A stretch of DNA of 64,000 nt, taken from the NCBI RefSeq assembly GCF_013122565.1, contig NZ_CP053258.1. One strand, given 5' to 3'. Below, one piece after another: positions 15,450 to 30,800 of this stretch; position 1 is the first letter of the stretch; each line of letters opens with the position of its first letter. Origin of the DNA: Escherichia coli (lineage in GTDB: Bacteria; Pseudomonadota; Gammaproteobacteria; Enterobacterales; Enterobacteriaceae). The notes under the pieces are model-generated. The model had not been told where the DNA came from. It was given only the letters and a program-made list of their open reading frames with translations, and ran no database searches. Made by a program: the position numbers and the translations under genes.

Positions 15450-16760
15450 CTACGAGAATTTAAATGCGTCAGAAATATTCAGCCGGGAAGCACGTAAAGC
15501 CGGTAACACAGAGGCACCTGTTGCTGTCAAAATAGGTAATACCACCGTCACCCAAATCAATTCCGGGTTACTGGTTTTTATAAAGGCGGTATAGCCGATG
15601 GTTTGTCCCGGCGATGGCGGCATCGCAATACCATAAAGATTAATAATCCAGGCTAGCGCCCCCCCCACCAGTAGGCTACCGACTGCGCCAATCACACCAA
15701 TAAAAATGCCTTCCGTCAGAAACAAGCGCGTGACGTGAAGCGGCTTCAGGCCTATGGCACGCAGAGTGGTAATTTCACGGGTGCGTTCAGCAATGTTCAT
15801 TGCCATCGAATTGCTGATCATGAAGATGACAATCAGCGCAACAATCAGCTTGATGAAGAAATAGATCCCCGACAGTAACCCCTCAACCTGTTGATAAAAG
15901 AGTGAAACATCACGCCAGTCTTTGACCACCAGCGGCAAATGATTGCGTTCAATAAACTGACGCAGCTTAGCGCTAAACGCCGCGGTGTCATCCTCTTTTA
16001 GCAGGATAAGCACTTTGCTGACGCCATCCGTACCCATCATGCGCTGCGCGGTGTCCAGCGGGATCTTCATCGCGACATCGTCATAATCTTTAATGCCTGA
16101 CTCAAAAATGCCACGCAGTTTTAGCGACAATGCGCCCTGCCCGCCCGCCGTGTTGACGACCATCACATCCAGCCAGTCGTCATATTTCGCATTCAACGTT
16201 TTCGCCAGACCGCTGCCCAGGGTGATTTCATCACCTTTTACCCGGGAAAGATCGCTCCCCGCGATAATCTTATCGAACGAGCCCAGCTTTAAAGCGGGTA
16301 ACGGCTCCACCCCTAGCGCGGAGAAATAGCTGGAGGTTTCGCTCTCGTAATGTGAAATTACGCCAGTAAACTCCAGTTGCCCGGAGAGCGTGGAAATATC
16401 CGCCGCCAGCGTCGGGTCCGACAAAATAGCTTTCTTTAACGCCGCATAATCGGCAATCAGGCTCTTATTTTTATTCGACGTTTCAAAATAGTGCTGATTG
16501 TAAATCTGTACATGACCAATATTGGTACGAATCGTCTGCTCTTTCAGGATCCAGAAAGAGTAATCAATAAATCCGCCATATAAAAAAATTGCCACGCCAC
16601 CCAATACAATGGCGGTTATAGTAGAAAAAGAGCGACGCTTGTGGCGAAAGAGATTCAAAAATGCAAATTTGACATCTCGTGAATAAAACAGAAGCTGATA
16701 AAACACAAAAAACAGAATCAGCAGCAGAACGCAATTAACAGCTAAAATTTCCCCGGACAT
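15450..16760 (-). CDS. ABC transporter permease, FtsX/MacB/LolCE family (N-terminal TM, large periplasmic domain, C-terminal 3-TM bundle)
   Basis: Topology and C-terminal FtsX-like segment; start codon abuts stop of upstream gene. Confidence 0.65.
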   Translation of the reverse strand: MSGEILAVNCVLLLILFFVFYQLLFYSRDVKFAFLNLFRHKRRSFSTITAIVLGGVAIFLYGGFIDYSFWILKEQTIRTNIGHVQIYNQHYFETSNKNKSLIADYAALKKAILSDPTLAADISTLSGQLEFTGVISHYESETSSYFSALGVEPLPALKLGSFDKIIAGSDLSRVKGDEITLGSGLAKTLNAKYDDWLDVMVVNTAGGQGALSLKLRGIFESGIKDYDDVAMKIPLDTAQRMMGTDGVSKVLILLKEDDTAAFSAKLRQFIERNHLPLVVKDWRDVSLFYQQVEGLLSGIYFFIKLIVALIVIFMISNSMAMNIAERTREITTLRAIGLKPLHVTRLFLTEGIFIGVIGAVGSLLVGGALAWIINLYGIAMPPSPGQTIGYTAFIKTSNPELIWVTVVLPILTATGASVLPALRASRLNISDAFKFS

Positions 16761-17417
16761 TTACTCACCTTTCATCAGCGGCAGCAGTACCTGGGTTAAC
16801 TCTTCACTATCCCATTCTGGTACAACATTAAAATCATGCGTCAGCGACTGCGCTAGCGCGGTGTTTTGCCCTTTAATTTGCGCCAACAACGCATTCGCGC
16901 GGGTGGTGTCCTTGCAGTGACGTAATGCGCGATAACGCATCGCCAGAATATGGTCGCGGATCGTTGTCGTCCATATCGCCGGGTCAGCCAGCATGTGTTC
17001 GGTATCTTTGACTGTCACCACGCAACGCCCTGAATCTGCGGGTAAATAGGCATCTACGCGGGCACGTAAATACCGTACGCGTTGATTTTTCTCCTGCAAA
17101 TCCACCGCTTCATCCAGCCAGAAAAAGCCGCTTTTGGCGTATTCTGAGGCATGGATAAAATCGTTTGTTGCCGCATAACTGTCTGCCTGACGCAGTAAGC
17201 CATAGGCATAAAAAACCAGCGCCACCACATTGTGCCTGGCGTCATACTCTTTCTTTAACGCCTCGGTCAGCATCGCCAGCGCGGCAGGCTGCGCCGGGAG
17301 CCCCTGTTGCAGAACCTGGTTAACGGCGTCGGGTGTTGCCGCGTAAATCTTCGGGGCCAAAAACGCCGCGTACAAAAAGACGCCGATGAGCAAAAATCCT
17401 TTATGCATCTGAGTCAT
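16761..17417 (-). CDS. Secreted hypothetical protein, 218 aa
   Basis: Signal peptide [26 protein letters not shown]; overlaps ABC ATPase gene end. Confidence 0.4.
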   Translation of the reverse strand: MTQMHKGFLLIGVFLYAAFLAPKIYAATPDAVNQVLQQGLPAQPAALAMLTEALKKEYDARHNVVALVFYAYGLLRQADSYAATNDFIHASEYAKSGFFWLDEAVDLQEKNQRVRYLRARVDAYLPADSGRCVVTVKDTEHMLADPAIWTTTIRDHILAMRYRALRHCKDTTRANALLAQIKGQNTALAQSLTHDFNVVPEWDSEELTQVLLPLMKGE

Positions 17418-18108
17418 GAATCAATACTCCATCCTGAATTTCAACCACTCGCCGTGCCCGCGCTTTTAATTCGCTGGAGTGCGTGGAAATAACAAATGTG
17501 GTGCCTGTCTGCTGATTAATCGTCAACAGCAGGTCCAAAATAGCCTCGCCGGTTGACAGGTCTAAATTTCCCGTCGGTTCATCGGCAATGACCACCATCG
17601 GTTCGTGTGCCAGTGCCCGGGCGATGGCGACACGCTGTTGTTGACCGCCCGATAGTTGCCCAGGTTTGCGATCGCCAAAACCGCTTAATCCGACGCTATC
17701 GAGATAATGCAGCGTCCGTTCAGTGGCTTCTTTTTTACTGAACTGGCCATTAAGCACCAATGGGAAATAAACGTTATCGAAAACATTTAATACCGGCATA
17801 AGATTAAAAAACTGAAAAATAAAACCCAGATGTTTTCCACGAATCACAGCTAACTGCTCTTCCGGCAGTTGGTTCAGTAATTTATTTAAAAATATCACCG
17901 TTCCGCTGGTCGGTTTATCAATACCCGAGAGAATATTCAACAGAGTACTTTTACCACTGCCTGATGGCCCACACAGTGCGAGAAATTCGCCTTTATTGAT
18001 ATCAAGATTAATGCTTTTAAGCGCATCAACCTTTCCTGCCCCGGCACCATAACACTTGTAAATGTTGCTAAGCGAAATAGCGGGCAACGATTTAATAGTA
18101 GATTGCAT
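17401..18108 (-). CDS. ABC transporter ATP-binding protein (LolD/MacB-type), ~235 aa from ATG 18108
   Basis: Walker [10 protein letters not shown], signature [15 protein letters not shown], Walker B VVIADEPT; start chosen downstream of the 317-aa gene stop with AGGA upstream. Confidence 0.85.
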
Positions 18109-18118
18109 ACGACTGTCG

Positions 18119-19072
18119 TTATCCTTCAAGGTATTCAAGGTCAAAGTAGTGATAACCAAACTGTTTATCGGCAATGACCGTACGCATTTTTCCACCGGGC
18201 TGAATATGACGGGTTAAATAATCCATACTCAGCGCGGGCGTCAGACAACCGCTTTCTCCGTAATGGGCTACCAGGTCGATAACGCCAGCAGCAGGCCGGG
18301 ACGGCATTTGTCGCCGTTCGCTGAAGGCCATGACATCAATATCCGTAGCATGCTGTGGCGCAGTGCCGGAATGATATTCCCCGCATTGCAGCCTGATGGC
18401 GCTCTCACGCTGGCTGAGAATAAAACAACCCACGCGTTCAACAGATAAATTCACCTCATCAGCACGACGGGGGAATAAACGCTTAGGCGGTTTACCCACA
18501 TCCTCTTCAGAGAATACCAGTACCGGAATTGCCCGATAGGCAGCGCAAATCACCACGTTATCGAATACATCCCAGGCGAGATAATCCTGCGCCATACGCA
18601 GCGCCTGAACGAATGCCTGTTTTTCGCCACGAATTTTGCAAGTCGGCTCAGTTATCGAAAACTTCTTAAGTAAATTCTTGGGAAGCGTATCAATAGTGGC
18701 GATATGCAGCGCACTGGAAATTTTTTCAAACGGACCGGATTCGCCCCAGGAATCGGCATAAATAAATGCCGTGCGCGATTTCATTAACTTCATGCGTTCT
18801 TTAGTCGGCATTTGTTGTAATGCAGAATCGGTCACCTGCTCCATCGCCTCAAGGTAAGGCATATATTGCGGATTACGGATCCGTTCCGGCGCATAAATAT
18901 CGTTCTCAACGCCAAAGCGCTTCAGCCCCCAGCCATTAGCACGGGTGCCATATAATCCTCTTTCGTACATATGTGCTTCCCAGGCGTTGAGCCAGGTCGG
19001 CTGATAAAAATAAAAAATGTCGTCCGGTTCCGTAAGCGCCCAGGAAGACAGGTAGATACTCTTTTCCGTCAT
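18119..19072 (-). CDS. Hypothetical protein, 317 aa, unknown function
   Basis: ORF in operon context, 4-bp overlap with upstream KS gene; no motif recognised. Confidence 0.5.
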   Translation of the reverse strand: MTEKSIYLSSWALTEPDDIFYFYQPTWLNAWEAHMYERGLYGTRANGWGLKRFGVENDIYAPERIRNPQYMPYLEAMEQVTDSALQQMPTKERMKLMKSRTAFIYADSWGESGPFEKISSALHIATIDTLPKNLLKKFSITEPTCKIRGEKQAFVQALRMAQDYLAWDVFDNVVICAAYRAIPVLVFSEEDVGKPPKRLFPRRADEVNLSVERVGCFILSQRESAIRLQCGEYHSGTAPQHATDIDVMAFSERRQMPSRPAAGVIDLVAHYGESGCLTPALSMDYLTRHIQPGGKMRTVIADKQFGYHYFDLEYLEG

Positions 19073-20292
19073 TTCGCGCGCCCCGCTTGCATATTTGACA
19101 TAACAACGCCAATAACCGAACCATCGACACCCACACCAACCTTCAGCAAATGGCGTTTGCTATGGTTTGTCACGCTGCCGTCCGTAAGTACCAGCGAAGC
19201 CATGCTGTCGATAATGACGTCGTTACCAACAGGTGCGATCAGTTGATGATGCGTCAACGAATGGTGGCCAATGATCAGATCGACAACACCGGATCCGGTT
19301 GCGGTATAGCCGATCTGCCCTTTATAGGCGAGAACGGGGATCTGCCGCTCCCCTGCGAACATGGTGATGGCTTTGGCTTCCGCGTTATCGCTCACTGCCG
19401 AACCGTTGCCGTGTGGAAGAATGGCTGCAAGATCATCCAGCGCAATTTCAGCCTGCTTCATCGCGGCCTGCATGACCTTGTGCACGTTAGTGCTAAGCCA
19501 GGAGGCATCGTTGCTGCGGCCCGCGCTGATTTGGGTGTAAGTCGTTTGCACCCTTACGCCCTCACTTTGTTGACGCGCCCGGCGGTGATGAGCGCTTTCC
19601 AGTAGGAGCGCGCTAAAACCTTCTGCGAACGCCACACCTTTACTGTTTTCACCAAACGGCTGAACCTGTTCGCTGTCCAGCATCGATTGCGTTTCCAGGA
19701 ACCAGATATCCTGGGTTTTAATTTTCGAACAGTTCAGCACAATCGCGAGATCAATCCCGCCCTGCTCAATGCCCTGCGTCGCCAGATGCACCGCAGTCAG
19801 TGACGAGTTACTGGTGCAGTTCATGTTAGGCGGCAAATACTGCAAGCGATATTTGCGCGCAAGATGGCTTGAAATCGTGTCCTGCGACATCTTTGAGGCA
19901 TGCAGATTTGTGATGGATTGCGTTAAGTTGATATCTTCTACATCGTTGTAATTATAGAAAGATTTGTAATCCAGCCCGTCGATACGCGGCCCAATACCGG
20001 TCAGATAAACGCGAACGTTGCGCCCGGCCAGGCAATGCTTATCCAGCATTGCCTGTTCCAGGGCTTCGTCGATCAACTGAGACAGCAGGTCCAATGCGCT
20101 ATCGTCCACCTGTTTCAACGTCGCCACTGACGGATTACCCTTAAACCCGCATTTAATGGCTTCCTCGTTGGAGGTAAACCAGGGTGTACGCGCAACGCGT
20201 TTCCCCTGTTTCAGATTGTCAATTAACTGCGAACAGTCTTCGGCATACGGCATCCACACGCTGTAACCCGAAATAATAGCGGCATTGTCCAC
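19069..20292 (-). CDS. Beta-ketoacyl synthase-like protein (start uncertain; GTG 20292 proposed, longest ORF to 20358)
   Basis: Active-site-like NCTSNSS cysteine and HGNGS histidine motifs; thiolase-fold length. Confidence 0.7.
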   Translation of the reverse strand: MDNAAIISGYSVWMPYAEDCSQLIDNLKQGKRVARTPWFTSNEEAIKCGFKGNPSVATLKQVDDSALDLLSQLIDEALEQAMLDKHCLAGRNVRVYLTGIGPRIDGLDYKSFYNYNDVEDINLTQSITNLHASKMSQDTISSHLARKYRLQYLPPNMNCTSNSSLTAVHLATQGIEQGGIDLAIVLNCSKIKTQDIWFLETQSMLDSEQVQPFGENSKGVAFAEGFSALLLESAHHRRARQQSEGVRVQTTYTQISAGRSNDASWLSTNVHKVMQAAMKQAEIALDDLAAILPHGNGSAVSDNAEAKAITMFAGERQIPVLAYKGQIGYTATGSGVVDLIIGHHSLTHHQLIAPVGNDVIIDSMASLVLTDGSVTNHSKRHLLKVGVGVDGSVIGVVMSNMQAGRAK

Positions 20293-20296: not shown

Positions 20297-22855
20297 TTAT
20301 CCCTTAATGACGAACGCGTAGTAGTTGCCGCCTTCCGTTGCGCCAACAAGCAGGACATGGTTCAGCGCAAGTTTCATCGACTGGCGTACAAAATTCACAC
20401 GCTCATCAAAGAATTCCACCGTATTTGGAATCGCAGGTACTGCCTGCTTCTTAATGCAGTCAGTAATCACGGCGAGGTTAAGCAAACCAGCGGCAGAGGC
20501 GACAAAACCAAAGCAAGCGTTGTAGTTCACTACCGGCACCGCCGGGTTTTGCGCAGCGAAGGTGTTGTAAATGGCGTCAATTTCGATACGAGAATGGTCA
20601 TCGCTGCCGTTGCTGGTACCACAGACCAAATCAATATCGCCAGCAGAGATGCCCGCATGCGTAAGGGCGCGTTCAATGGCCAGCGCCATCGACGCGGATT
20701 TTTCTTCCAACAATGAGGCGTCGAAGTAGGTATTACTACATGACTTACCGTAGCCCACCACTTCCGCGAGAACCTCAGCGCCACGCGCCGCAGCCAACTG
20801 TGGATCTTCCAGCAGCAGCATGCAGGCACCCTCGCCCGGAACATAACCCTGCGGATCTTTACCGTAAATTTGATAGTCGCTCGCCTCAGCCGTCATGTGG
20901 ATCTTTTGCGTCACCGCATCCATATACAGCGACATAGACGGGAAGTACTCATCCGCGCCGCCAACCAATACCTGCGGTTGCAGGTTCTGCCGGACGATTT
21001 CATAACCGTAGGTCAGCGCGCCCAGCGCCGAGTTTTCCCCTGTCGCAAGCGTAGTGGTATACCCTTTGATCCCTTCAGAGATCCCGCAGAACGTTGGGAT
21101 CGCATTCATCAGCGAGCCAGGAAATTCCGACGTACGTACTTTGCGTGGATCGGGTTTCAGACTTTGCAGATATTTGTAGGTGGTTTCCTGCGGACCGCGG
21201 GACATCCCCATGATCATGCCCAGCTCATCGCCATCGCGTTTGATTTTACGCTTCGCCTGTTCCAGCGCTTCGGTGAGTGCGATCAGGGCAAACGTGCCGC
21301 CACGGGTCGCTTTACGCTGATCGAAACGACGCAGGTGTTTACGCGGCTCCAGCCCGGAAACCTGGAACGTTTTAAAGTTGCTTGCCGTTTCCGGAAGCGT
21401 AGCGTCGCTGAAGCTGTACTCTTCATCAAACAGCTCGGCAAACTGGTTTGATTCATCCAGCACGGCCAGCAGCTCTTTGGCTTCTTCCAGTGTATCGTCC
21501 GGGAAGGTTACGCTACCCAGTTCAACGTGGTGGTCCTGCGCCCAGATGTTTTCCAGAACCTGGTTGAGCGTGTGGCCTATTGCGGATACTGCACCGACGC
21601 CCGAGATAGCCACACGCTTCGAATCATAGGTACTGACCGGAATGGACGCGGGCTCCATGCTCAGGATCATGCAGCAATTGTTGCCGCCGAAGGCATAGTT
21701 ATTCTTCATGAAGATGTTCACTTTGCGATCGCGAAATTCATTCGGCACATAGTCCAGATCGCAATTCGGGCGTGCCTGGCTGAAATTCAGCGTCGGCAGT
21801 ACGCGGTTGTCCGGCAGTGTTGCCAGACAGGCAATCAGTTCCACAATCCCCGCTGCGCCAATGTTGTGGCCAAAGTAAGATTTGGTGGAGCTCACCAGCA
21901 GTTTATCGTGGTTAGCGAAGACCTTTTTCATTGCCAGCGTTTCGATACGGTCATTGGCTTCGGTACCCGTACCGTGCGCGTTGACGTAATCGATTTGCTC
22001 CGGGGTTACGCCCGCATTTGCCATTGCCTTGTTCATGACCTGCACCGCTCCGCTGGCACGCGGATCTGGCCCGGTTTCATGGAAAGCATCGCAGGAAGTG
22101 GCGTAAGAGAGGATCTCACCATAAATGGTCGCCCCGCGTGCTACGGCGTGCTCATACTCTTCCAGCACGATAGCGCCAGCGCCTTCACCAATCGACATAC
22201 CGGACTGACCCGAGAACGGCGTACAAGTGTCTGGATGCATGACATTCAGTGCGTAGAATCCGGCAAAGGTCGGCAGATAGATGGGCTCGGTACCTACTGC
22301 CAGCATGGTTTTGCTTTTACCATTCTGGATGTAGTCAAAGGCCATCCCCACGGCGTTCGGGCTGGCGGTACACGCGGTCGCCACCAGTTCAACCCCGCCC
22401 TGTAAGCCCAGCAGCGTTGAAACGCTGGAACAACATGATGAGAACGCGCCGGAAAAAAGTGCTTTGCGCAGCGAGAAATCTTCCATGCGCTGTTCGAACA
22501 GCGGTAAAAAGGCCTCTGTACCCGCGGAGGAAACACCGACGATCATGCCTGTTTCTTTGAGAGTGTCACGGCTATCCATCAGGCCGGCCTGACTCAGCGC
22601 ATCTTTACCCACTTTGTAGGCCCAGAGCGCTGCGTTATCCAGTGAATCGATAACATCTTCGTTCAGATCGGAGTATTCAATGTCATGCAACACTTCTGCC
22701 GCACGCGCATTTTCAAACCATTTTGCAAAGCGTTCGCTATCCTTAACGCCATTTTTTTTATTTAATAATGCTTCCCGGAAATCCTGAATATTTTCCGCCA
22801 GTGAGGACAAAATCCCCAGCCCGGTAATAACAACTCTTTTCCTGTTCGTTTTCAT
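20297..22855 (-). CDS. Fused ketosynthase / chain-length-factor-like protein (KS-CLF), 852 aa
   Basis: N-terminal half has TACTAS Cys, HGTGT and GHNIGAAG motifs; C-terminal half is KS-like but lacks the active-site Cys. Confidence 0.8.
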   Translation of the reverse strand: MKTNRKRVVITGLGILSSLAENIQDFREALLNKKNGVKDSERFAKWFENARAAEVLHDIEYSDLNEDVIDSLDNAALWAYKVGKDALSQAGLMDSRDTLKETGMIVGVSSAGTEAFLPLFEQRMEDFSLRKALFSGAFSSCCSSVSTLLGLQGGVELVATACTASPNAVGMAFDYIQNGKSKTMLAVGTEPIYLPTFAGFYALNVMHPDTCTPFSGQSGMSIGEGAGAIVLEEYEHAVARGATIYGEILSYATSCDAFHETGPDPRASGAVQVMNKAMANAGVTPEQIDYVNAHGTGTEANDRIETLAMKKVFANHDKLLVSSTKSYFGHNIGAAGIVELIACLATLPDNRVLPTLNFSQARPNCDLDYVPNEFRDRKVNIFMKNNYAFGGNNCCMILSMEPASIPVSTYDSKRVAISGVGAVSAIGHTLNQVLENIWAQDHHVELGSVTFPDDTLEEAKELLAVLDESNQFAELFDEEYSFSDATLPETASNFKTFQVSGLEPRKHLRRFDQRKATRGGTFALIALTEALEQAKRKIKRDGDELGMIMGMSRGPQETTYKYLQSLKPDPRKVRTSEFPGSLMNAIPTFCGISEGIKGYTTTLATGENSALGALTYGYEIVRQNLQPQVLVGGADEYFPSMSLYMDAVTQKIHMTAEASDYQIYGKDPQGYVPGEGACMLLLEDPQLAAARGAEVLAEVVGYGKSCSNTYFDASLLEEKSASMALAIERALTHAGISAGDIDLVCGTSNGSDDHSRIEIDAIYNTFAAQNPAVPVVNYNACFGFVASAAGLLNLAVITDCIKKQAVPAIPNTVEFFDERVNFVRQSMKLALNHVLLVGATEGGNYYAFVIKG

Positions 22856-22928
22856 GAATAATACCTGTCAATCCCGCCTATTGGGGTTAATTTAAGCCGC
22901 GTAAGCTATAGTCACGCGGCGATATTCA

Positions 22929-24089
22929 TTACGCAGCGCTTTTATTTTTTGACGCGTCGATATAACTGTGCTCAGTTGGGCTAACCAACATGCTCAGGTT
23001 ATAAATAAACGGCATACATTTTGATTGCGCCGGAATAATTCCGTGAGCAGTTTGAATTTCGTAGCCGCTGATGTCAGACCAGGCGTAATCATTATCCAGC
23101 AGAGTCAGGGCAATGAAACGCTGCAACGCTGGGGAAAAGAGTGCCTTCACGATATAGCCCACGTCTTGACCTTCCACCAGCACACGATCGCCAGCCTCAA
23201 TGCCTTCGCATTCTTCCTGAGCGATCATGCCGATGAGTTTATTACCGGTATACTCCTGGGAGAGCTCTGTCACCGCGTCCTTGCCAATAAAATCATCTTT
23301 GTCGTACTGCACCGCCCACTGCATCTGCAACTGAACCGGATTCACTGCCTGACCTTCCCAGAGGCTGGCATCCCAGCACGGATTTTCGAGGCGTACGATT
23401 TTTTGATAATCCAGGCCGCCGGTCTGCATCAGGTATTTCTCGCCGACGGTTAACAGTTTTTCCCACTGCTCCGCCAGTTTCGCCTGCTCACCGATGGTCA
23501 TGTACGCATACTCACCGTGTTTACCACAGCGGAAGATCAGCAGATCCTCCTCGGTATTCATGTATTCGTAGTAAGGCAGGCCAATAACGTCAAAGCCATG
23601 AATTTCAGACATGATCTCCCAGGAGTATGGGCCTTCGAGCAGGATTGCCCCCCAGTTGTTTTCCCGCATATCCTGAATTTCAGGCATCGATTGAATATCC
23701 AGTTCTTCCGCTTTTTCGAGAATGGTATTCATGCTGGCGATCAATTCGGCAGCCGAAATATCTTCTGAAAGCAGGTAATAACCGTCAATGCTGCACAGCA
23801 CATAGACGTCTCCGCGAATGGTGCCCTCTTCATTCAACACCAGTGAGTAGATTGCCTGCTCATCACGAATGATGGAGACATCTGCGGAAACCAGCTGGTT
23901 GATCAGCGCCCAGGCATCATCGCCCATGACGCTAACAATAGAGAGGTGAGAATAGTCCACCAGCAGCGCGTTTTCACGAACGGCTTTATATTCGGTCATA
24001 GCATCGTGATAAGAAGAAGGTAGGGTACGGTTGTTATATACCCCCATTACCGCATTATTTTTCAAGTGAAATTCAGCAAGAGATTTCAT
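22929..24089 (-). CDS. GcvT-like aminomethyltransferase-family (folate-binding) protein, 386 aa
   Basis: Overall resemblance to glycine-cleavage T family N-terminus; assignment tentative. Confidence 0.5.
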   Translation of the reverse strand: MKSLAEFHLKNNAVMGVYNNRTLPSSYHDAMTEYKAVRENALLVDYSHLSIVSVMGDDAWALINQLVSADVSIIRDEQAIYSLVLNEEGTIRGDVYVLCSIDGYYLLSEDISAAELIASMNTILEKAEELDIQSMPEIQDMRENNWGAILLEGPYSWEIMSEIHGFDVIGLPYYEYMNTEEDLLIFRCGKHGEYAYMTIGEQAKLAEQWEKLLTVGEKYLMQTGGLDYQKIVRLENPCWDASLWEGQAVNPVQLQMQWAVQYDKDDFIGKDAVTELSQEYTGNKLIGMIAQEECEGIEAGDRVLVEGQDVGYIVKALFSPALQRFIALTLLDNDYAWSDISGYEIQTAHGIIPAQSKCMPFIYNLSMLVSPTEHSYIDASKNKSAA

Positions 24090-24124: not shown

Positions 24125-24406
24125 TTAATCGTTGTTCTTTTGAATAACGAAGGTGGCCAGACTATTGATACTGCGCATATAGGACGGGTCGTCACTTTCG
24201 CTGATCTTGATATCAAATACTTTATCCAGCAGAACGACAATTTCCGTTGCATCGACGGAGTCCAGTTTAAAACCATTACCAAACAGCGCAGTATCATCAT
24301 CAATTTGCGCTTCATCGCGTTGAATATTCAGTCGCTGGATGATCTCAGTTTTAATGGTCATCAGAACTTCTTTACGCTGTTCAATAGCGTCATTCATGGT
24401 AGACAT
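24125..24406 (-). CDS. Acyl carrier protein
   Basis: FKLDSVDATEIVVLLD phosphopantetheine-attachment motif; small acidic protein. Confidence 0.75.
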   Translation of the reverse strand: MSTMNDAIEQRKEVLMTIKTEIIQRLNIQRDEAQIDDDTALFGNGFKLDSVDATEIVVLLDKVFDIKISESDDPSYMRSINSLATFVIQKNND

Positions 24407-24427: not shown

Positions 24428-24976
24428 TTACTTGGTTTCACGGAAATTGATAATGGTGCCCTGACTAATCAGCTTTTTACCGACGTACGCGGTCACGGAA
24501 TAGTGTTTAAAGCCACTGGCATCCGAAAAAGCCAATTTGCTGACAACATCAATAGAATCACCCGGATAGGCGATATCTTTAAATTTCAGGTTCTGAGCAG
24601 CCAGCACGCCGCGTACCTGGCTGCGCCGGGTACGGATAATCTCCAGCATTTCAGGGCGGTGAATGCGTGCGTGAATATCACGTAACGACTTCAGCTCTTC
24701 CTCAAAACGTTCGCGCCAGATATCGCAAATGTCGGTCAGGAAAGAGAGATACTCGCTGGCCTGGCCGAAGATTTCCGAAATAATCACCCCGGGCATAATC
24801 GGATCTTCCGGGAAATGCCCCAGTAGATACGGTTCGTTATAGGTGACGTGCTTCACGACACTGACAAAGCCATTTTCACCGTATTTATAATCTGCAATTT
24901 TATCGACCATCAGCAGCGGCTGACGCCAGCCGCCCATTTCGAGGAAGATTTTCGAAGGAATCGTGTATTTGGACAT
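24428..24976 (-). CDS. FabA/FabZ-like hot-dog beta-hydroxyacyl-ACP dehydratase
   Basis: HFPEDPIMPGVIISEIFGQA matches the FabZ catalytic His region. Confidence 0.65.
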   Translation of the reverse strand: MSKYTIPSKIFLEMGGWRQPLLMVDKIADYKYGENGFVSVVKHVTYNEPYLLGHFPEDPIMPGVIISEIFGQASEYLSFLTDICDIWRERFEEELKSLRDIHARIHRPEMLEIIRTRRSQVRGVLAAQNLKFKDIAYPGDSIDVVSKLAFSDASGFKHYSVTAYVGKKLISQGTIINFRETK

Positions 24977-24979: not shown

Positions 24980-25744
24980 TCACCGCATGACCAGGCCGCC
25001 ATCGATAACGATGGTCTGGCCGACAATGTAGCTGGAGGCAGAGGAACTTAAGAAGACGATGGTGTTCGCCACTTCTTCACATTTACCCAGACGGCGTAAC
25101 GGGATGGTACTGGTTACCGCACGGACCACTGCGCGGGATACTTTTTTCACCATTTTCGATTCAATCATTCCCGGTGCGACCGCGTTGACGCGCACGCCCC
25201 AGGGTGCCATTTCTGCTGCCAGCGTGCGGGTGAAGCCTAGGATCGCCCCTTTTGACGCGCTGTAATTCGCCTGACCGACGCTTGGGATCAGCGCTGCAAT
25301 AGAGGCAACGTTAATAATGGCGGGATTTTCTGCCGCACGAAGCAACATCAGCGCGTCTTTCGTCAGACGGAAAATGCTGAACATGTTGGTTTCGATAACT
25401 TGGGTGAAATCCTCATAGCTCATCGAGGCAAACAGGCTGTCTTTAACGATGCCCGCGTTATTCACCAGCACATCAATCTTGCCAGCTTCGCGCTCTATCT
25501 GTTCGCACAATGCGCTCACACTCTGGGGGCAGGCGAGATCGCACTGCACAATATGCAGTTTATCGCCTGCAGGATGGCTTGCTTTCAGCGCCGTTAATTG
25601 CACGTCGTTGGATTTATAGAGCGCATAAACATCGCAGTTCTGCTCCAGATATTTTTCACAAATACCCAGTCCAATATCACCACTGGCTCCTGTCACCAGT
25701 ACGGTTTTTTCATTTAAATCATTATATTTGTACATATTCATCAT
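24980..25744 (-). CDS. 3-oxoacyl-ACP reductase-like SDR (FabG family)
   Basis: TVLVTGASGDIG Rossmann motif, NNAG, YSASK catalytic Tyr-Lys; start set at internal Met to avoid overlap with PPTase. Confidence 0.85.
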   Translation of the reverse strand: MMNMYKYNDLNEKTVLVTGASGDIGLGICEKYLEQNCDVYALYKSNDVQLTALKASHPAGDKLHIVQCDLACPQSVSALCEQIEREAGKIDVLVNNAGIVKDSLFASMSYEDFTQVIETNMFSIFRLTKDALMLLRAAENPAIINVASIAALIPSVGQANYSASKGAILGFTRTLAAEMAPWGVRVNAVAPGMIESKMVKKVSRAVVRAVTSTIPLRRLGKCEEVANTIVFLSSSASSYIVGQTIVIDGGLVMR

Positions 25745-25754: not shown

Positions 25755-26123
25755 TTAATAAACGATGACAGTCGCAATGGCGTGGGTACGGCAATGCGAA
25801 ATACTCAGGGAGTTATTTTGCAACCCCTGCCCGAGAAAAATTTCTTGTAGTCTTCCGGAAATAACGAAATAAGGTGCTTTGGCCGCATCATGCTTTATTT
25901 CAATATCCTGGAAACGTACGCCATCACGAAAACCACAACCAATCGCTTTAACTAACGCTTCTTTCGCCGCCCAGAATCCAGAGGCCCGTTCATAATCAGG
26001 TTCTGCAGGATTAATGAGTAAGCGCTCATGAGCAGTATAAACACGCTCATAAAAAGCCATCTCTCCATTAATAATGGCTTTGGTTATTCTGGCAATTTCA
26101 ACAATATCTGTTCCTATTCTCAT
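25755..26123 (-). CDS. AcpS-type 4'-phosphopantetheinyl transferase (holo-ACP synthase)
   Basis: [14 protein letters not shown]-terminus and [11 protein letters not shown], both AcpS-like; 15 nt after tpsB stop with AAGGA SD. Confidence 0.8.
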
Positions 26124-26138: not shown

Positions 26139-27758
26139 TTACATTTGGTACGAAAAATTAAAATTTATATTCACCCGATCAATATCTAATGTCGCCGGGT
26201 ACTTTAATGGGGTAGAAACGGAAAAGTTATACTCAAGACTTTTTATGTTTCCATCAATACCAACTGCCGCGCCCACCAGTGATTCATCGCCATAAGAAGC
26301 GTCCTGATACACTTGCCCAAAATCAAGACCGGCATAATAATTAGCTTTCATTCCAGGCAAAGGAAATGCCAGCGTATTTTTTATATAAAAACCATCATTC
26401 CCTGACAAACCTACGCTATTTTCAAACCCGCGAATACTCCAACGATCGCCAACTGTAATTTGATCTTGCAAAGTCAGTTCACACGGTGCGTACTGGGCAA
26501 AAAAAGCGGTATTGTAATATCCATTATCTATTTGTCGGGTATAGTTACCCTCAAAATTAAAGATATTGCTTACCGGGCTAACGTCGCCATATTGCATATT
26601 CGGCGTTTTTTCACCACCGAACCAAGTTAAAAAGCGTTGCCACGAGAGGGTTGAATCCCAGAACGCGCCGGGTAACTGTTGCTTATAATTTAGCCCCAGC
26701 TTGATATTTCCCATATCCCGCGCCTGTAATGTCAGCTCCTCACCATTAAGCGTGTAATTCGACTTTCGTCGAATGAGTTCTGCACTCCCGGCGAATTTTT
26801 TTGTTTTATCGCGATAAACGGTACGCGTCGCCTTTGCGCTCAAGTATTCGCTGGTGCCAACATAATCCAGCGAGATGTACGAAAGCGGAATCACCTGCTG
26901 CGATTTACTTTTGCTATAGAAAAAGCCGTACTCCCAGTACCCCACCGGAATGGAATAATAGCTACTGACGTTTTCGTACTGTCCAGTAGTACTACGCGTA
27001 CCGGCGAGATAAAACAGATCCCCCATTTTCGCTGGATTAAACAGATAACCCACCGCGGTTGTCTGGTAACGGCCCGTTTCTTCATCGCCCCAATTGTTGT
27101 AACTTGCCCGAACGCTCCAGTTTTTGCCCCGGTGTGTATCAATATGAACGATGCTGTAACCATCCCGTGTTCCCGGTTCAATATTAATTTTCACATCAAC
27201 GTCAGGTACTCGCTGAAGATTTTCCAGCCCCTGTTCAATATCGCGAATATTGAGAATATCGTTACGCTGAAAAGGTAACATCCATTCACTGATATCATTA
27301 CCTTCCACAATCGTTTTTTCTATCTTCCCGGCATTAACCTGGAAACGTAGCTTGCCTTTAGAAATATCCTGCGAAGGGATACTAATTCGCGTTGTGATAT
27401 ATCCGGCATTAATATAATAATCCTGCAAGGCAGCAGCAATTTTTTGCACACCAGCACTACCGACACAACGTCCGGCAATCGCTTTTTGCACTTCAGAAAT
27501 AAACTGACCATCCAGAAAGTTATCTTCCAGTTCAATCCGATTAATGATAAAGCAATTCTTTTCCTGCGGTAGATCACTCAGAGTAAACGCATTACGTTGT
27601 GCATTTGAGTAAACATCTTTTTTTTCTAATTTATGCGCGCGTAACGTGCTTTCATCTGCATTTTTTTGCTGCTTGATCAAATTATCAATACTGTCTTTCG
27701 CTGCAACCTGAAAACAACAAAGAATGAGCAGCAAACCAAAATTAAATCGTAATTGCAT
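26139..27758 (-). CDS. TpsB outer-membrane transporter (ShlB/FhaC/HecB family)
   Basis: Signal peptide, POTRA-region length, loop-6 SIRGFE (VRGY/F) motif. Confidence 0.8.
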   Translation of the reverse strand: MQLRFNFGLLLILCCFQVAAKDSIDNLIKQQKNADESTLRAHKLEKKDVYSNAQRNAFTLSDLPQEKNCFIINRIELEDNFLDGQFISEVQKAIAGRCVGSAGVQKIAAALQDYYINAGYITTRISIPSQDISKGKLRFQVNAGKIEKTIVEGNDISEWMLPFQRNDILNIRDIEQGLENLQRVPDVDVKINIEPGTRDGYSIVHIDTHRGKNWSVRASYNNWGDEETGRYQTTAVGYLFNPAKMGDLFYLAGTRSTTGQYENVSSYYSIPVGYWEYGFFYSKSKSQQVIPLSYISLDYVGTSEYLSAKATRTVYRDKTKKFAGSAELIRRKSNYTLNGEELTLQARDMGNIKLGLNYKQQLPGAFWDSTLSWQRFLTWFGGEKTPNMQYGDVSPVSNIFNFEGNYTRQIDNGYYNTAFFAQYAPCELTLQDQITVGDRWSIRGFENSVGLSGNDGFYIKNTLAFPLPGMKANYYAGLDFGQVYQDASYGDESLVGAAVGIDGNIKSLEYNFSVSTPLKYPATLDIDRVNINFNFSYQM

Positions 27759-27846: not shown

Positions 27847-30800
27847 TTACATGCCGACAATAGTACCGGTGTTGTCAGTTTCGTTTGCTTCTAACGCTAA
27901 ACCGTAGAAGCCACCGAGAACAGCGTCTTTACCGCTATTCGTAACCTTATTTGCCGATACGCCAGCGACACCATAACTCAGCATATTGAGGTAGTTATAA
28001 ATATTACCGGTGGTTTTAACACCCAGAGAATAATCACCCACAATATTTCCACGGTTATTAATGTCATTCACGGCATTGATCGCGATGGTTTGTCCCAACA
28101 TATTACTGTTGCTGTTGTTGGTAACATACTTCTGCGTATCAATAGTCAGCGCAGTTCCCGCCACAATGTCTTTAAAGTTCTCAACACCGTTCAGGGCATT
28201 AATGGTCAGCGCGTTGTCCGCTGCGATGGCATTACGGTTATACAGCGTGCCTTTCAGAACATTGAAATGCACATCCCCTTTACCGCTGATCCAACCATAG
28301 TTAGTGACGCTGTTATCAACGTTCAGATCTAGGTTTTTGTCAGACGCAATCACGCCCGTGGCGGTATTGTCTTCCAGACGACCATCACTGGCGTTACTCA
28401 ACGACGCCGCATAAACATCGAGATTACCGGCGCTGTAAGTGGTGGCATAGTTGTTGTAGAACATACCAGCCGCACGGATGATGGCATCAGCCCCACTGCT
28501 AAGAAGCGCGCGGGTATTATCCAGCGTTCCCCTGGACAGCAGATTAAGCGGACCATTTTCAGCGATGATGCTGCTGTTATTGTTGTAGACGTTCTGAGCA
28601 GAAAGCGTGACACCTTCTTTACCCACAATGCCACCAACGTTGTCAGTAATACCGAAAACTTCACCGTTATAACGCAGGAAGTTATTCCCGTCGCGGTTTT
28701 CGAGGTTGCCGCCAGCGTTAATAACCAGCTTTTTATTCGCCGCGATCAGCGCAGTGTTGTTGTAAATCGTCGATTTAGCATCGACAGAAACATTCTCACC
28801 GGCAATCAAACCATAGGCGTTGTCTACAATGTTCGCCGTCAGAGTCACGTCGCCCGTTTCAGAGGTCAGCGAGCCCTTAAAACTGTCGTAGTTGCCCGTC
28901 AGTGCCAGCGTGACGTCGTCATAACCACGAATTTCACCGTAGTCGTTGTTCAGATTGCTGCCTTTTACAGACAACACGCCGTTCAACGCATGCAGCTTAC
29001 CGCGGTTGTTACCCACGTTGCCCTTCGAATCGATAATCAGATCGCCTGTCGCTTCGATGGTCGCGTTATTGTTGGCCACGCTATTTGCCGTTAATGCGAC
29101 ATCCCCATAACCCACCATATAGAGATAGTTATACAGGTTGCCTTTGGTTGTCACGTTCAGGTCAACATCACTGACAATGTTGCCACGGTTGTTGATATCG
29201 TTAACCGCGTTAATAACGATATTCTGCCCCACCATATTGCTGTTGGAGTTGTTGGTCACATGGCGATTGGTGTTCATCGTCAGGTCGCCGCCAGCAGAAA
29301 TATCCTTCCAGTTTTCAATACCGTTCAGTGCTGCAATGTCCAACCCCTTTTCAGCCGCAATAGTATTGCGGTTGTACAGGTTGCCATTTTTCACCGTGAC
29401 ATCAACATCACCTTTACCGCTGATCCAGCCGTAGTTGGTAAGGCTATTCACCACTTCCAGTGACAGATTTTTGTCAGATGCAATGAACCCGGTCGCATTG
29501 TTATCGATCATCGTACCGCTGCTGCTGTTTTGCAGCGTGGTCGCGTCGATATCCAGGTTGCCCGCACTCCAGGTGGTAGCGTAGTTGTTGTAATACGTTC
29601 CGCCAACCTGAATAGATGCATCCGCCCCGCTGATGACCAGAGCTCGCGTGTTGTCGAACGTGTTCTGCGCCTGCAGAGTCAGAGGACCATCCTCAGCGAT
29701 AATACGGCTGTTGTTGTTATAGATGTTCTGCCCGGAAAGCTCGATGCCTTCCTTGCCGACCATTCCACCCGTTTGCTGAGGCATGCCGAAGTACTGACCA
29801 TAAGCATTACCGAAGTTATTGCCATCGCGGTTTTCGATACTGCCGCGCGCATTTATCTTCAGTTTTTTGCTGGCCACGATCAGCGCTGTGTTGTTATTGA
29901 CGCCAGACATCGACTCCATCGTGATGTTCTGCCCCATCATGAAGCCGCCGTGGTTATCCACGGAGTTGGCTAACAGGGAGATATCACCCTCTTCAGAGCT
30001 GATCACGCCAATATTATTGGTCAGGCTGCCGCCAACGGCGACTTCAATACCCTGCTTACCGCTGATCCCCCCGGTATCGTTACGCAGAGAGCTTCCCTTG
30101 ATAATCACTTTGCTGTTGGACAGAATTTTGCCCGCATAGTCGTCGATCGTGCTGTAACTTGACAGGGAGACGTTGCCATTAGACGCAATCTGTCCGCCAT
30201 TGTTATTGATGTTGTTCGCACCAATTTCTACGCCGGTATCTGCAATAATGCCCAGAGAGTCAGAACTGCCGGTATCGGCGGTTTTGGTTGAACCATTATT
30301 TACGCTACCTGCCGCACCAATAACGATATGCCCGGTGGACGAACGGATCAGACCTTTGTTGTTATCCACATTACCGTTACTGATAATGGCGATATCGCCA
30401 GTGGTCTGGATATCACCGCTGTTGTTATTCAACGCGCCTGATTCAAGCCCCACATAACCGCCGCGAATCTGACCATTGCTGTTGTTGAGCGTTCCGGTTT
30501 TCAGCGCCACGAGCCCCGCTTCAATCCCGACAGAACTCCCTTTACCAGAGTTAATCAGCGTGGCGTTATTGGTATCAACCGCCAGCATACCTGCTGCGGC
30601 GAGCTTGCCGTTGGTGTTATCAATCGTGCCACTGTTAACGTAGATATCGCCCATCGTAGAGATGTTACCCGCACGGGTATTCACGATAGTATTCTTGTTG
30701 GTATTAAGCGAGATAGTGCCTACAGATGTCACCGTACCGGTGGTGTTATCCAGAGTACCATTTGTTGTCAGGTTGATCGTGCTTGCAGACTGAATCTGGG

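What the first reader, a model, noticed from the sequence alone, without database searches (positions are those of the whole stretch)
22929..24089. GcvT-like folate-binding aminomethyltransferase-family gene embedded in a lipid biosynthesis operon
This family is not a usual component of fatty-acid or polyketide clusters. It could supply a one-carbon/aminomethyl transfer or act on an amino-containing head group, pointing to an atypical product.
Basis: inference. Interest (0 to 1): 0.5.

Follow-up and report, generated by a model that had tools for sequence, protein, structure and literature searches.

The report
Carrier-protein-partnered GcvT-like enzyme in lipid cluster
A gene in an E. coli O157-type genomic island looks like the folate-using T-protein of glycine cleavage, but it has lost most of the folate-contact residues and always sits beside (or is fused to) an acyl carrier protein in an uncharacterised lipid-building gene cluster found across several bacterial phyla, so it is probably a re-purposed enzyme of unknown chemistry.

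Summary
Window 22929..24089 (-) encodes a 386-aa protein with Pfam GCV_T and GCV_T_C domains and a confident T-protein fold. It lies inside a 15-gene type II FAS/PKS-like operon in E. coli O-island 47.

The gene is a core part of the cluster. In 80 of 80 related loci, from Enterobacterales to Myxococcota, Planctomycetes and Gemmatimonadetes, an ACP gene lies directly upstream. A KS-CLF didomain gene is present in 72 of 74. Three loci found through the KS protein all carry the gene. In Myxococcota the ACP and the GcvT-like domain are fused.

The one-carbon reading is weakly supported. The catalytic Asp is kept. The folate-contact Tyr, Glu and Arg, and a canonical Asn, are replaced throughout the clade by Lys, a variable residue, Gln/Leu and Glu. 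New clade-specific invariant residues appear. Scores fall far below the curated GcvT cut-offs, and no gcvH is nearby.

Best reading: a T-protein fold re-purposed to act on the phosphopantetheine-tethered intermediate of its partner ACP, perhaps releasing it to a nitrogen nucleophile. The chemistry is inferred, not shown. I found no paper on this association. I rate it a new variant of a known kind, of moderately high interest.

The parts
22929..24089 (-). GcvT-like (T-protein-fold) protein, 386 aa; the finding itself
   Evidence: ORF. Pfam GCV_T plus GCV_T_C. NCBIfam GcvT score of 136 bits against a cut-off of 300. AF2 model with pLDDT 93. Foldseek top hits are T-proteins. Residue analysis.
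24125..24406 (-). Acyl carrier protein (93 aa, LDSVD serine motif); invariant upstream partner of the GcvT-like gene
   Evidence: NCBIfam ACP families. Serine motif. Adjacent in 80 of 80 loci. Fused to the GcvT-like domain in Myxococcota.
20297..22855 (-). KS-CLF didomain protein (852 aa). The N-terminal half has a Cys-His-His triad. The C-terminal half has Glu/Thr/Phe at those positions and is inactive, like a chain-length factor.
   Evidence: NCBIfam FabF 3.5e-136. Active-site alignment to E. coli FabF. Co-occurrence.
19069..20292 (-). Third KS-like protein with Ser in place of the active-site Cys, and Tyr in place of the second His
   Evidence: RefSeq start.
18119..19072 (-). 317-aa protein with no family match. 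It aligns weakly to the KS fold and is conserved after KS3 in architectures A and B.
   Evidence: Co-occurrence.
24428..24976 (-). FabZ/FabA-type (ApeI-like) dehydratase
   Evidence: NCBIfam FabZ 1.6e-20. Pfam FabA/ApeI-like on orthologues.
24980..25741 (-). FabG-like ketoreductase (SDR)
   Evidence: NCBIfam 3-oxoacyl-ACP reductase 7.8e-71. RefSeq coordinates.
25755..26123 (-). Dedicated AcpS-type phosphopantetheinyl transferase
   Evidence: NCBIfam TIGR00516 scores 79.6 bits against a cut-off of 59.8.
17401..18108 (-). LolD-like ABC ATPase
   Evidence: NCBIfam LolD 7.8e-68.
16761..17417 (-). 218-aa conserved protein of unknown family, with a signal-peptide-like N-terminus
   Evidence: No family. 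Conserved position. Faint TPR hits on a relative.
15450..16760 (-). LolC/E-like (MacB_PCD plus FtsX) permease
   Evidence: NCBIfam lolCE 5.1e-26. Pfam hits on orthologues.
14653..15441 (-). LolA-like periplasmic carrier (TP_0789-like, PF17131)
   Evidence: RefSeq name 'outer membrane lipoprotein-sorting protein'. Pfam hits on orthologues.
13268..14656 (-). 462-aa secreted protein of unknown family, a candidate outer-membrane component
   Evidence: No Pfam or NCBIfam match. Conserved position.
12313..13257 (-). FabD-like malonyl-CoA:ACP transacylase. It is the full-length form of the K-12 pseudogene ymdE.
   Evidence: NCBIfam fabD 4e-52. K-12 ymdE is truncated by IS3D. The 945-bp full-length form is noted in PMC4951805.
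11330..12316 (-). YcdU, a polytopic membrane protein. It is the last gene of the operon and overlaps the FabD-like stop codon.
   Evidence: Also found in the Providencia locus.
11150..11171 (-). Best intrinsic-terminator-like hairpin (9-bp stem, 6 G-C pairs), downstream of ycdU. Likely the operon end.
   Evidence: This is a consensus match only.
26139..27758 (-). TpsB (ShlB/FhaC-type) transporter, conserved upstream of the lipid genes in architecture A
27847..31659 (-). TpsA exoprotein (TPS domain and filamentous-haemagglutinin repeats), conserved upstream in architecture A
   Evidence: NCBIfam adhes_NPXG 7.9e-22..

Best explanation
The gene encodes a full three-domain T-protein (GcvT) fold that has been re-purposed as a dedicated subunit of a type II FAS/PKS-like pathway. 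Its partner is no longer the lipoyl-bearing H-protein. It is the acyl carrier protein encoded directly upstream, which is fused to it in some Myxococcota. I propose (inference) that the phosphopantetheine arm of that ACP, carrying the growing or finished acyl chain, enters the central cavity in the way the lipoyl-lysine arm of the H-protein enters GcvT. I also propose that the reaction does not use tetrahydrofolate in the canonical way. The pterin-binding Glu, the stacking Tyr, the GcvT-specific Arg and a canonical Asn are replaced across the whole clade, while the catalytic Asp (D94) is kept. A new invariant set has appeared: E109, Y155, W157, E158, K190, Y196, N236 and a C-terminal PFxxNxS tail. 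My most specific guess is that it offloads or tailors the chain. By analogy with GcvT chemistry, where an Asp-activated nitrogen attacks the carbon bound to the carrier's sulfur and frees the thiol, D94 would activate an amine (or water) bound in the remodelled pocket. That nucleophile would attack the acyl-S-ACP thioester. The released lipid would then be moved to the outer membrane by the LolCDE-like transporter and LolA-like carrier encoded downstream. Shown: family, fold, residue pattern, universal ACP adjacency and fusion, and co-occurrence with KS-CLF. Inferred: ACP-arm insertion, folate independence, and the offloading chemistry. My confidence of 0.55 applies to the general statement (ACP-partnered, not canonical folate chemistry). 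For the specific offloading-by-amine step I estimate about 0.25.
For: (1) Fold and family. Pfam GCV_T and GCV_T_C match, the AF2 model has pLDDT 93, and TM is 0.78-0.86 to T-proteins against 0.5-0.6 to YgfZ/Iba57. (2) Obligate ACP partnership. An ACP ORF ends within 400 nt upstream in 80 of 80 loci, with a median gap of about 34 nt. Natural ACP-GcvT-like fusion proteins exist: five representatives, confirmed by precomputed Pfam PP-binding plus GCV_T, and about 27 of the best 120 clusters around P0251. The domain order, ACP then GcvT-like, matches that of ACP followed by a release or tailoring domain in megasynthases (established knowledge; inference). (3) Core cluster membership. A KS gene, usually the KS-CLF didomain, lies in 72 of 74 loci with enough flank. 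Three of three loci found through the KS-KS protein carry ACP then GCV_T. The minimal Myxococcota version is only KS-CLF, ACP, GcvT-like, AT, KR and DH. (4) Remodelled folate site over 84 clade members against canonical GcvTs. The human Y197 position is Lys in 82 of 84. The E204 position is K/L/D/M and never Glu. The R233 position is Gln in 50 and Leu in 31. The canonical Asn is Glu in 100%. Asp101/EcD97 is kept as D in 77 and E in 7. The identity of the catalytic Asp was checked against the 3A8K D97N sequence. The roles of these residues come from PMC9551070. Larger multi-domain relatives (762-920 aa) keep Tyr and Glu. (5) New clade-specific invariant residues indicate a conserved function rather than decay. 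(6) No gcvH homologue lies in any locus. A hot-dog thioesterase appears in only 2 loci and a FeeM-type acyltransferase in 1, so most clusters lack another obvious release enzyme. (7) Scores fall far below curated cut-offs for GcvT, DmdA, SoxA, Tdm and LigM/DesA.
Against: No biochemical data exist. I could not inspect model coordinates, so neither the position of the new invariant residues in the cavity nor the docking of the ACP was verified. A carboxylate could have moved: the invariant E109 might bind a pterin in an altered pose, so folate use is not excluded. One locus (L091) also encodes a 4HBT thioesterase and a FeeM-like N-acyl synthase, which argues against the GcvT-like protein being the sole release enzyme there. 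KS3, with Ser in place of Cys, together with its 317-aa partner could be the acyl-transfer or release activity in architectures A and B. Housekeeping thioesterases or FabI could act in trans. The literature tool covers only part of the literature, so 'not described' is provisional.
Confidence: 0.55

Rival explanations
1. It is still a folate-dependent one-carbon enzyme. It would use 5,10-methylene- or methyl-THF bound in a non-canonical pose to add a C1 unit to, or remove one from, the ACP-tethered intermediate, for example an alpha-methylene, hydroxymethyl or aminomethyl group.
For: All characterised catalytic members of the fold transfer C1 units to THF (family names and hits). The catalytic Asp and the GE and RLE motifs are retained. 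A carrier protein with a thiol arm is the natural partner type of a T-protein. The invariant E109 could substitute for the lost pterin-binding Glu (inference).
Against: Three canonical folate contacts (Tyr197, Glu204 and Arg233 equivalents) and a canonical Asn are replaced throughout the clade (roles from PMC9551070). No folate-metabolism or gcvH gene lies in any of the roughly 90 loci I inspected. Scores are far below every curated cut-off for folate-dependent relatives.
Confidence: 0.2
2. It is a non-catalytic ACP-binding scaffold or chaperone. The T-protein cavity would sequester and protect a reactive polyene or beta-keto intermediate on the ACP arm, or help set chain length, without doing chemistry.
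For: ACP adjacency and fusion. In the glycine cleavage system, binding of the T-protein governs release and protection of the carrier arm (PMC7733448). Related folds (YgfZ, Iba57) have lost folate catalysis (PMC9551070).
Against: The retained catalytic Asp and a set of invariant charged or polar residues (E109, E158, K190, E193, Y196, E235, N236) look more like an active or ligand site than a hydrophobic holder. This is inference only.
Confidence: 0.13
3. It is an ordinary glycine-cleavage T-protein paralogue, or a YgfZ/Iba57-type Fe-S factor, that merely hitch-hikes in the island and has nothing to do with the lipid pathway.
For: The database name is 'aminomethyltransferase family protein', and some sources call it 'glycine cleavage system T protein'.
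Against: It scores 136 bits against a cut-off of 300 for GcvT. E. coli has a canonical gcvTHP operon elsewhere. The position between the ACP and KS-CLF genes is conserved across phyla, and fusions to the ACP exist. Fold similarity to YgfZ/Iba57 is much lower than to T-proteins.
Confidence: 0.03

Closest known systems
[quoted passage not shown]
   Same: Same three-domain fold (TM 0.78-0.86) and same Pfam domains. It retains the catalytic Asp (EcD97/HsD101 = D94) and the AVR, GP, GE and RLE motifs. It works, by inference, with a small carrier protein that bears a thiol-ended swinging arm.
   Different: About 22-24% identity, and far below curated cut-offs. The folate-contact Tyr, Glu and Arg and a canonical Asn are replaced clade-wide. 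There is an extra conserved C-terminal tail. The partner gene is an ACP, not gcvH. It sits in a KS/KR/DH/AT operon.
YgfZ / Iba57 (COG0354), GcvT-fold proteins that have lost canonical folate binding
   Same: They set a precedent for a GcvT fold in which the pterin-binding Glu and the stacking Tyr are lost while the Asp is retained (PMC9551070).
   Different: Much weaker structural match (TM 0.5-0.6). No YgfZ family hit. The context is lipid synthesis, not Fe-S cluster maturation.
Aryl polyene (APE) biosynthetic gene clusters of Gram-negative bacteria
   Same: A type II system with a KS/CLF pair, FabG-like KR, ApeI-like FabZ-type DH and a dedicated ACP. There is no enoyl reductase in the cluster. 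A LolA-like protein for outer-membrane delivery is present. The composition of APE clusters is from my own knowledge of the literature and was not tested here.
   Different: No adenylating starter enzyme, methyltransferase, glycosyltransferase, lysophospholipid acyltransferase or MMPL exporter was found among the 17 proteins. It has instead the GcvT-like protein, a KS-CLF fusion, a Ser-active-site KS, a LolCDE-like ABC exporter and, in Enterobacterales, a two-partner-secretion pair.
O-island 47 (OI-47) of E. coli O157:H7 EDL933 (z1528-z1556)
   Same: The window carries this island: dgcT, an EAL-domain gene, a winged-helix regulator that I take to be grvA (assignment by position, not tested), a fimbrial operon, TpsA/B and the lipid operon ending at ycdU (PMC8565820). 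The gene is 99% identical in O157:H7 and O55:H7 genomes.
   Different: Published work on OI-47 that I could find concerns GrvA and effects on T3S. I found nothing on the lipid operon or this gene.

Membership tests
GcvT/aminomethyltransferase superfamily (Pfam GCV_T PF01571 plus GCV_T_C PF08669) | Significant match to both Pfam domains over their full length | tested here: met
   GCV_T 4.8e-33 (model positions 2-255 of 255) and GCV_T_C 3.4e-7 (2-78 of 80).
GcvT/aminomethyltransferase superfamily | Three-domain T-protein fold | tested here: met
   AF2 pLDDT 93 and pTM 0.90. Foldseek TM 0.78-0.86 to 1WOS, 1YX2, 1V5V, 1VLO and 1WSR.
Bona fide glycine-cleavage T-protein (GcvT) | Score above the curated NCBIfam cut-off (TIGR00528 at 235.85; NF001567 at 300) | tested here: not met
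   99.1 and 136.2 bits.
Bona fide glycine-cleavage T-protein (GcvT) | Canonical THF-contact residues (human Met56, Asp101, Tyr197, Glu204, Arg233; PMC9551070) | tested here: not met
   Leu49 (hydrophobic character kept) and Asp94 (kept). Lys190 replaces Tyr, Met197 replaces Glu and Gln229 replaces Arg. The same pattern holds in 84 clade members.
Bona fide glycine-cleavage T-protein (GcvT) | Genomic and functional association with gcvH and gcvP | tested here: not met
   No GcvH homologue in any related locus. The canonical gcvTHP operon lies elsewhere in E. coli K-12.
Bona fide glycine-cleavage T-protein (GcvT) | THF-dependent release of NH3 and CH2-THF from aminomethyl-H-protein | not testable with these tools
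   Needs an enzyme assay.
DmdA / LigM / DesA / Tdm / SoxA-type folate-dependent demethylases | Score above the curated family cut-off | tested here: not met
   DmdA 74 against 410. LigM 27 against 580. DesA 30 against 800. Tdm 89 against 1100. SoxA 79 against 1164.
YgfZ / Iba57 (COG0354) | Closest fold and sequence relationship to YgfZ/Iba57 rather than to T-proteins | tested here: not met
   TM 0.51-0.61 to 1NRK, 1VLY, 7Z3H and 6QE3, against 0.78-0.86 to T-proteins. No YgfZ family among the NCBIfam hits. The conserved Cys motif was not examined residue by residue.
Aryl polyene (APE) gene cluster family (the surrounding operon) | Type II KS/CLF, KR, ApeI-type DH and dedicated ACP, with no cluster-encoded enoyl reductase | tested here: met
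   and 17/18 (ApeI-like Pfam hit, weak).
Aryl polyene (APE) gene cluster family (the surrounding operon) | Aryl starter machinery (adenylating enzyme), thioesterase, acyl- and glycosyltransferases and an MMPL exporter. This list is recalled from the literature. | tested here: not met
   None of the 17 proteins between 11330 and 31659 matches such families. The exporter is LolCDE-like.
Proposed new clade: ACP-partnered GcvT-like proteins | Motif R-x-G-K-[TH]-G-E-[FY]-x-Y, invariant Glu at the canonical Asn position, G-P-Y-x-W-E, and a C-terminal P-F-x-x-N-x-S tail | tested here: met
   Query residues R187, K190, E193, Y196, E109, Y155, W157, E158, N364 and S366.
Proposed new clade: ACP-partnered GcvT-like proteins | ACP gene directly upstream or fused, with a KS-CLF didomain in the same cluster | tested here: met
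   Window. ACP upstream in 80 of 80 loci and KS in 72 of 74. Fusions.

The most novel reading that the evidence does not exclude
The T-protein fold has been recruited into polyketide/fatty-acid biochemistry as a new kind of carrier-protein-dependent enzyme. It would use the conserved Asp and a remodelled former folate pocket to release or modify an acyl-S-ACP, for example by amide-forming offloading to an amine. This would define a previously unrecognised, phylum-spanning family of lipid gene clusters. The enterobacterial version, in E. coli O157:H7 OI-47, would deliver its product to the outer membrane through a Lol-like route and would be genetically coupled to a two-partner-secretion adhesin.
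Probability: 0.25. Interest if true: 0.8.

Novelty: new variant of a known kind. Interest (0 to 1): 0.62.

Why it matters
If this is right, a fold known only for folate-dependent one-carbon transfer (and for the debated YgfZ/Iba57 Fe-S role) has a third use as a partner of acyl carrier proteins. That would add an enzyme type to the type II PKS/FAS toolbox and give a sequence signature for finding an uncharacterised family of lipid clusters in many phyla. The E. coli copy sits in O-island 47, which is carried by O157:H7, O55:H7 and other strains (about 7% of complete E. coli genomes) and survives in K-12 only as the ymdE-ycdU remnant. The product is therefore a candidate envelope lipid of a major pathogen. 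Its tight linkage to a TpsA/TpsB pair suggests a testable link between a secreted adhesin and a dedicated lipid. The work also cautions against reading 'aminomethyltransferase family protein' annotations as evidence of folate chemistry.

Tried and rejected
- **Literature searches.** I searched for GcvT or aminomethyltransferase together with ketosynthase, polyketide or aryl polyene, and for EDL933 locus tags Z1545-Z1550. None returned anything relevant. OI-47 papers discuss only GrvA and T3S effects.
- **T-protein/H-protein complex paper.** I tried to read the E. coli paper by DOI and by a guessed PMC id. It is not held, so contacts with the lipoyl tunnel and the H-protein could not be mapped.
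- **LigM search**. It gave no residue-level information, and I dropped it.
- **Ordinary GcvT paralogue.** Rejected on curated cut-offs, active-site residues and context.
- **YgfZ/Iba57-type protein.** Rejected on fold scores.
- **Control on the 'canonical' comparison set.** Two proteins in it (P0216, P0225) lack Tyr, Glu and Asp. P0216 proved to be another divergent GcvT-like protein, not DmdA. These outliers therefore do not weaken the canonical pattern. I could not obtain a DmdA or LigM sequence for a residue-level control.
- **Model coordinates.** I chose not to spend the second structure job on a fusion model, because only pLDDT and pTM would be returned.
- **TpsA repeats.** A DNA-level repeat search was negative. 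A protein-level comparison showed the internal duplication.
- **tRNA search.** No tRNA lies in window 1-12000, so the expected serX neighbour of ycdU is not within that stretch.
Full report

Yes. Window 22929..24089 (minus strand) is an ATG-started ORF of 386 aa. It has an AGGA ribosome-binding motif 7 nt upstream and lies 35 nt after the stop codon of an ACP gene.

Pfam matches GCV_T (4.8e-33, the whole model) and GCV_T_C (3.4e-7). The best NCBIfam hit is GcvT PRK00389 at 1.3e-39. An AlphaFold2 model built on a 20-sequence alignment is confident, with pLDDT 93 and pTM 0.90. Its best structural matches are solved T-proteins at TM 0.78-0.86. YgfZ and Iba57 match much less well, at TM 0.5-0.6.

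The neighbours lie on the same strand and are tightly packed:
- Upstream: an AcpS-type phosphopantetheinyl transferase, a FabG-like ketoreductase, a FabZ/ApeI-like dehydratase and an ACP.
- Downstream: an 852-aa KS-KS didomain, a third KS-like protein, a 317-aa protein of unknown family, a LolD-like ATPase, a 218-aa unknown, a LolC/E-like permease, a LolA-like carrier, a 462-aa unknown, a FabD-like transacylase and YcdU.

The best terminator-like hairpin on that strand lies just after ycdU. 'Embedded in a lipid biosynthesis operon' is therefore accurate.

**2. Where does the window come from?**

The region is E. coli. An 8.2-kb piece spanning the biosynthetic genes matches 382 of 5426 complete E. 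coli genomes at 95% identity or more. The gene itself matches 381 genomes, at 99% identity in O157:H7 and O55:H7.

The gene content corresponds to O-island 47 of EDL933 (z1528-z1556; PMC8565820). It comprises dgcT, an EAL-domain gene, a winged-helix regulator that I take to be grvA by position, a fimbrial operon, an SDR, TpsA/TpsB, and the lipid operon ending at ycdU.

K-12 keeps only dgcT, IS3D, the ymdE pseudogene and ycdU. ymdE is the 3' remnant of the FabD-like gene, whose full length is 945 bp, as PMC4951805 notes for other phylogroups. Papers on OI-47 that I could find deal with GrvA and T3S phenotypes, not with this operon.

**3. Is the gene a real member of the cluster?**

Orthologues at 56-80% identity occur in Enterobacter, Kosakonia, Leclercia, Klebsiella oxytoca and K. 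aerogenes, Mixta, Serratia, Rahnella, Aeromonas, Acinetobacter and Neisseria. An exhaustive search of representatives shows a graded clade reaching down to about 27% identity.

A genome scan with a clade alignment returned 80 loci. They come from Enterobacterales, Pseudomonas, Paraburkholderia, Desulfatitalea, Arenicella, Competibacteraceae, Myxococcota (Polyangium), Planctomycetes and Gemmatimonadetes. I annotated their six-frame ORFs with the window's proteins and counted:
- An ACP ORF ends within 400 nt upstream in 80 of 80 loci that have upstream sequence. The median gap is about 34 nt.
- A KS gene, usually the KS-CLF didomain, is present in 72 of 74 loci with at least 3 kb on both sides.

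Three architectures appear:
- **A:** TpsA-TpsB-AcpS-KR-DH-ACP-GcvT-like-KS/CLF-KS3-h317-LolD-h218-LolCE-LolA-OM462-FabD. Found in Enterobacterales, Acinetobacter and Neisseria.
- **B:** the same without the TPS pair and with an extra SDR. Found in Serratia, Erwinia, Proteus, Pseudomonas and Paraburkholderia.
- **C:** a minimal set of ACP and GcvT-like with one to three KS/CLF genes plus KR, AT and DH. Found in Myxococcota, Competibacteraceae and Planctomycetes.

As a reciprocal test, I searched with the KS-KS protein. I then opened three hits from taxa not seen before: Utexia, Thorsellia and Serratia fonticola. All three have ACP then GCV_T directly upstream.

**4. Rosetta-stone evidence**

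Five representatives of 459-477 aa carry an N-terminal ACP domain fused to the GcvT-like domain. The ACP domain matches the window's ACP at E 1e-14 to 1e-18 and has a GLxLDSVDA motif. Precomputed Pfam confirms PP-binding plus GCV_T, and the contexts again hold KR, DH, KS-KS and AT.

Around one such fusion, about 27 of the best 120 protein clusters are fusions. They come mainly from Archangium, Myxococcaceae and related Myxococcota. The ACP and the GcvT-like protein therefore act together.

**5. Are the folate-binding residues conserved?**

Mostly not. PMC9551070 lists Met56, Asp101, Tyr197 and Glu204 of human GcvT as the canonical THF contacts. These are invariant also in TrmE and dimethylglycine oxidase. 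Arg233 is GcvT-specific. I anchored the alignment on E. coli GcvT. I checked which Asp is catalytic against the deposited D97N mutant sequence.

| Human GcvT residue | Query residue | 84 cluster-linked proteins |
|---|---|---|
| Met56 | Leu49 | M, V, F, Y or L |
| Asp101 | Asp94 | D in 77, E in 7 |
| Tyr197 | Lys190 | K in 82 of 84 |
| Glu204 | Met197 | K, L, D, M and others; never E |
| Arg233 | Gln229 | Q in 50, L in 31 |
| canonical Asn (VVNxA motif) | Glu109 | E in 100% |

Canonical GcvTs and larger multi-domain relatives keep Tyr and Glu. Two outliers in my 'canonical' set turned out to be further divergent GcvT-like proteins, not DmdA.

The clade has gained its own invariant residues: Y155, W157, E158 (G-P-Y-x-W-E), K190, Y196, N236, and a C-terminal P-F-x-x-N-x-S(...N-P-x-E-H-S-Y) tail that canonical T-proteins lack. 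This pattern indicates a conserved, changed function rather than decay. No gcvH homologue lies in any locus, and E. coli has its ordinary gcvTHP operon elsewhere.

**6. What is the rest of the machinery?**

- The N-terminal half of the 852-aa protein has the FabF Cys-His-His triad. The C-terminal half has Glu/Thr/Phe at those positions and is CLF-like.
- The third KS has Ser in place of Cys and Tyr in place of the second His.
- The 317-aa protein aligns only weakly to the KS fold and has no family match.
- There is one ACP, one AT, one KR and one DH. No enoyl reductase or thioesterase is encoded in the operon. Host enzymes could act in trans.
- The exporter is LolD-like plus LolC/E-like with a LolA-like periplasmic protein (Pfam hits on orthologues).

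This suggests a lipid extracted from the inner membrane and passed to the outer membrane. The closest described system I know is the aryl polyene cluster family, a comparison made from memory. The aryl-starter, acyl- and glycosyltransferase and MMPL components of that family are absent here.

**7. How does it most likely work?**

Shown: fold, residue pattern, ACP pairing and fusion, and cluster membership. The rest is inferred.

A T-protein normally receives the thiol-ended swinging arm of a small carrier protein in its central cavity. There an Asp-activated nitrogen of THF attacks the carbon bound to sulfur and frees the thiol (PMC9551070, PMC7733448). I propose that in this clade the carrier is the ACP and the arm is phosphopantetheine. 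The former folate pocket would now bind something else.

My most specific guess is offloading or tailoring of the acyl-S-ACP by an amine or water nucleophile activated by D94. The reasons are these:
- Most clusters have no other release enzyme. A 4HBT thioesterase occurs in only 2 loci and FeeM in 1.
- The minimal clusters contain nothing else beyond elongation enzymes.
- The fused domain order, ACP then GcvT-like, mirrors ACP-release-domain arrangements in megasynthases.

Points against:
- L091 has its own thioesterase and FeeM-like enzyme.
- KS3(Ser) with h317 may be an acyl-transfer pair.
- Invariant E109 might rescue pterin binding.
- I could not examine coordinates.

I put 0.55 on the general statement (ACP-partnered, not canonical folate chemistry) and about 0.25 on the specific offloading step. 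I put 0.20 on a non-canonical folate-dependent C1 transfer, 0.13 on a non-catalytic ACP holder, and about 0.03 on an unrelated paralogue.

**8. Novelty and verdict**

Databases already label the gene 'aminomethyltransferase family protein', so the family assignment is not new. Three things appear undescribed in the literature I could search. They are the obligate, phylum-spanning pairing with an ACP and a KS-CLF, the natural ACP fusions, and the systematic remodelling of the folate site. I rate the gene a new variant of a known kind, a new functional clade of the GcvT fold, inside an uncharacterised lipid cluster family. Its interpretation is partly supported: the family and the atypical cluster role hold up, but folate-dependent C1 or aminomethyl transfer is not favoured. 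Interest 0.62.

Noticed in passing
window 26139-31659 (TpsB, TpsA); loci L002, L003, L008-L030, L052, L092: A two-partner-secretion pair (TpsA exoprotein and ShlB/FhaC-type TpsB) lies directly upstream of acpS in every architecture-A locus. These loci come from Enterobacterales, Acinetobacter, Neisseria and Utexia. The pair therefore looks like a conserved part of the lipid cluster rather than a chance neighbour. This raises the possibility that the lipid modifies or cooperates with the secreted protein.
   Followed up: partly
window 27847-31659 (TpsA protein residues 523-863 and 901-1241): The E. coli TpsA is 1270 aa, against about 850 aa in other genera. It contains an internal duplication: residues 901-1241 are 59% identical to residues 523-863. 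No DNA-level repeat was detected.
   Followed up: yes
window 11330-13257; K-12 locus L089 5545-6830: K-12 'ymdE' (a pseudogene) and ycdU are the last remnant of this 15-gene operon. The rest, and most of OI-47, is missing next to IS3D after dgcT. These two genes were reported as core genes of mastitis-associated phylogroup A E. coli, without this context being recognised (PMC4951805).
   Followed up: partly
window 18119-20292: The third KS-like protein has Ser in place of the catalytic Cys and Tyr in place of the second His. It is always followed by a 300-370-aa protein with no family match that aligns weakly to the KS fold. This may be a decarboxylase or acyl-transfer heterodimer.
   Followed up: partly
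window 18000-26200 against complete E. coli genomes: Reviews state that OI-47 is confined to O157:H7, O55:H7 and O145:H28. The lipid operon is nevertheless present in 382 complete genomes. These include isolates from baboon, blackbird, pig, fish, frog and gull, and one copy is on a plasmid.
   Followed up: partly
window 9160-11051: Just beyond ycdU lie an IS200C-type tnpA (10542-11051) and a tyrosine recombinase (9160-10251). They are followed in the matching genome by another island carrying inovirus Gp2-like genes, a YfjI-family gene and a fragment of a TOTE conflict system. No tRNA gene was found in window 1-12000, although serX follows ycdU in K-12.
   Followed up: no
protein P0034: A 287-aa version of the GcvT-like protein stands for 143 sequences, one from a 4.9-Mb contig. 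It is 97% identical and covers 72% of the query. Some E. coli lineages may therefore carry a truncated or differently called copy.
   Followed up: no
locus L091 9323-15380: In one variant with the ACP-GcvT-like fusion, the cluster also encodes a 4HBT thioesterase, a FeeM-like N-acyl amino acid synthase, a second AT and a glycosyltransferase. This hints that at least some family members make N-acylated or glycosylated lipids.
   Followed up: no
loci L075, L076, L079, L080, L083 (about 12970-14780); L090 3815-4981: Myxococcota clusters share an extra conserved gene after the dehydratase. It encodes a protein of about 390-600 aa with a weak match to a TmcD-family segment. Its function is unknown, and it is a possible additional cluster component.
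   Followed up: no
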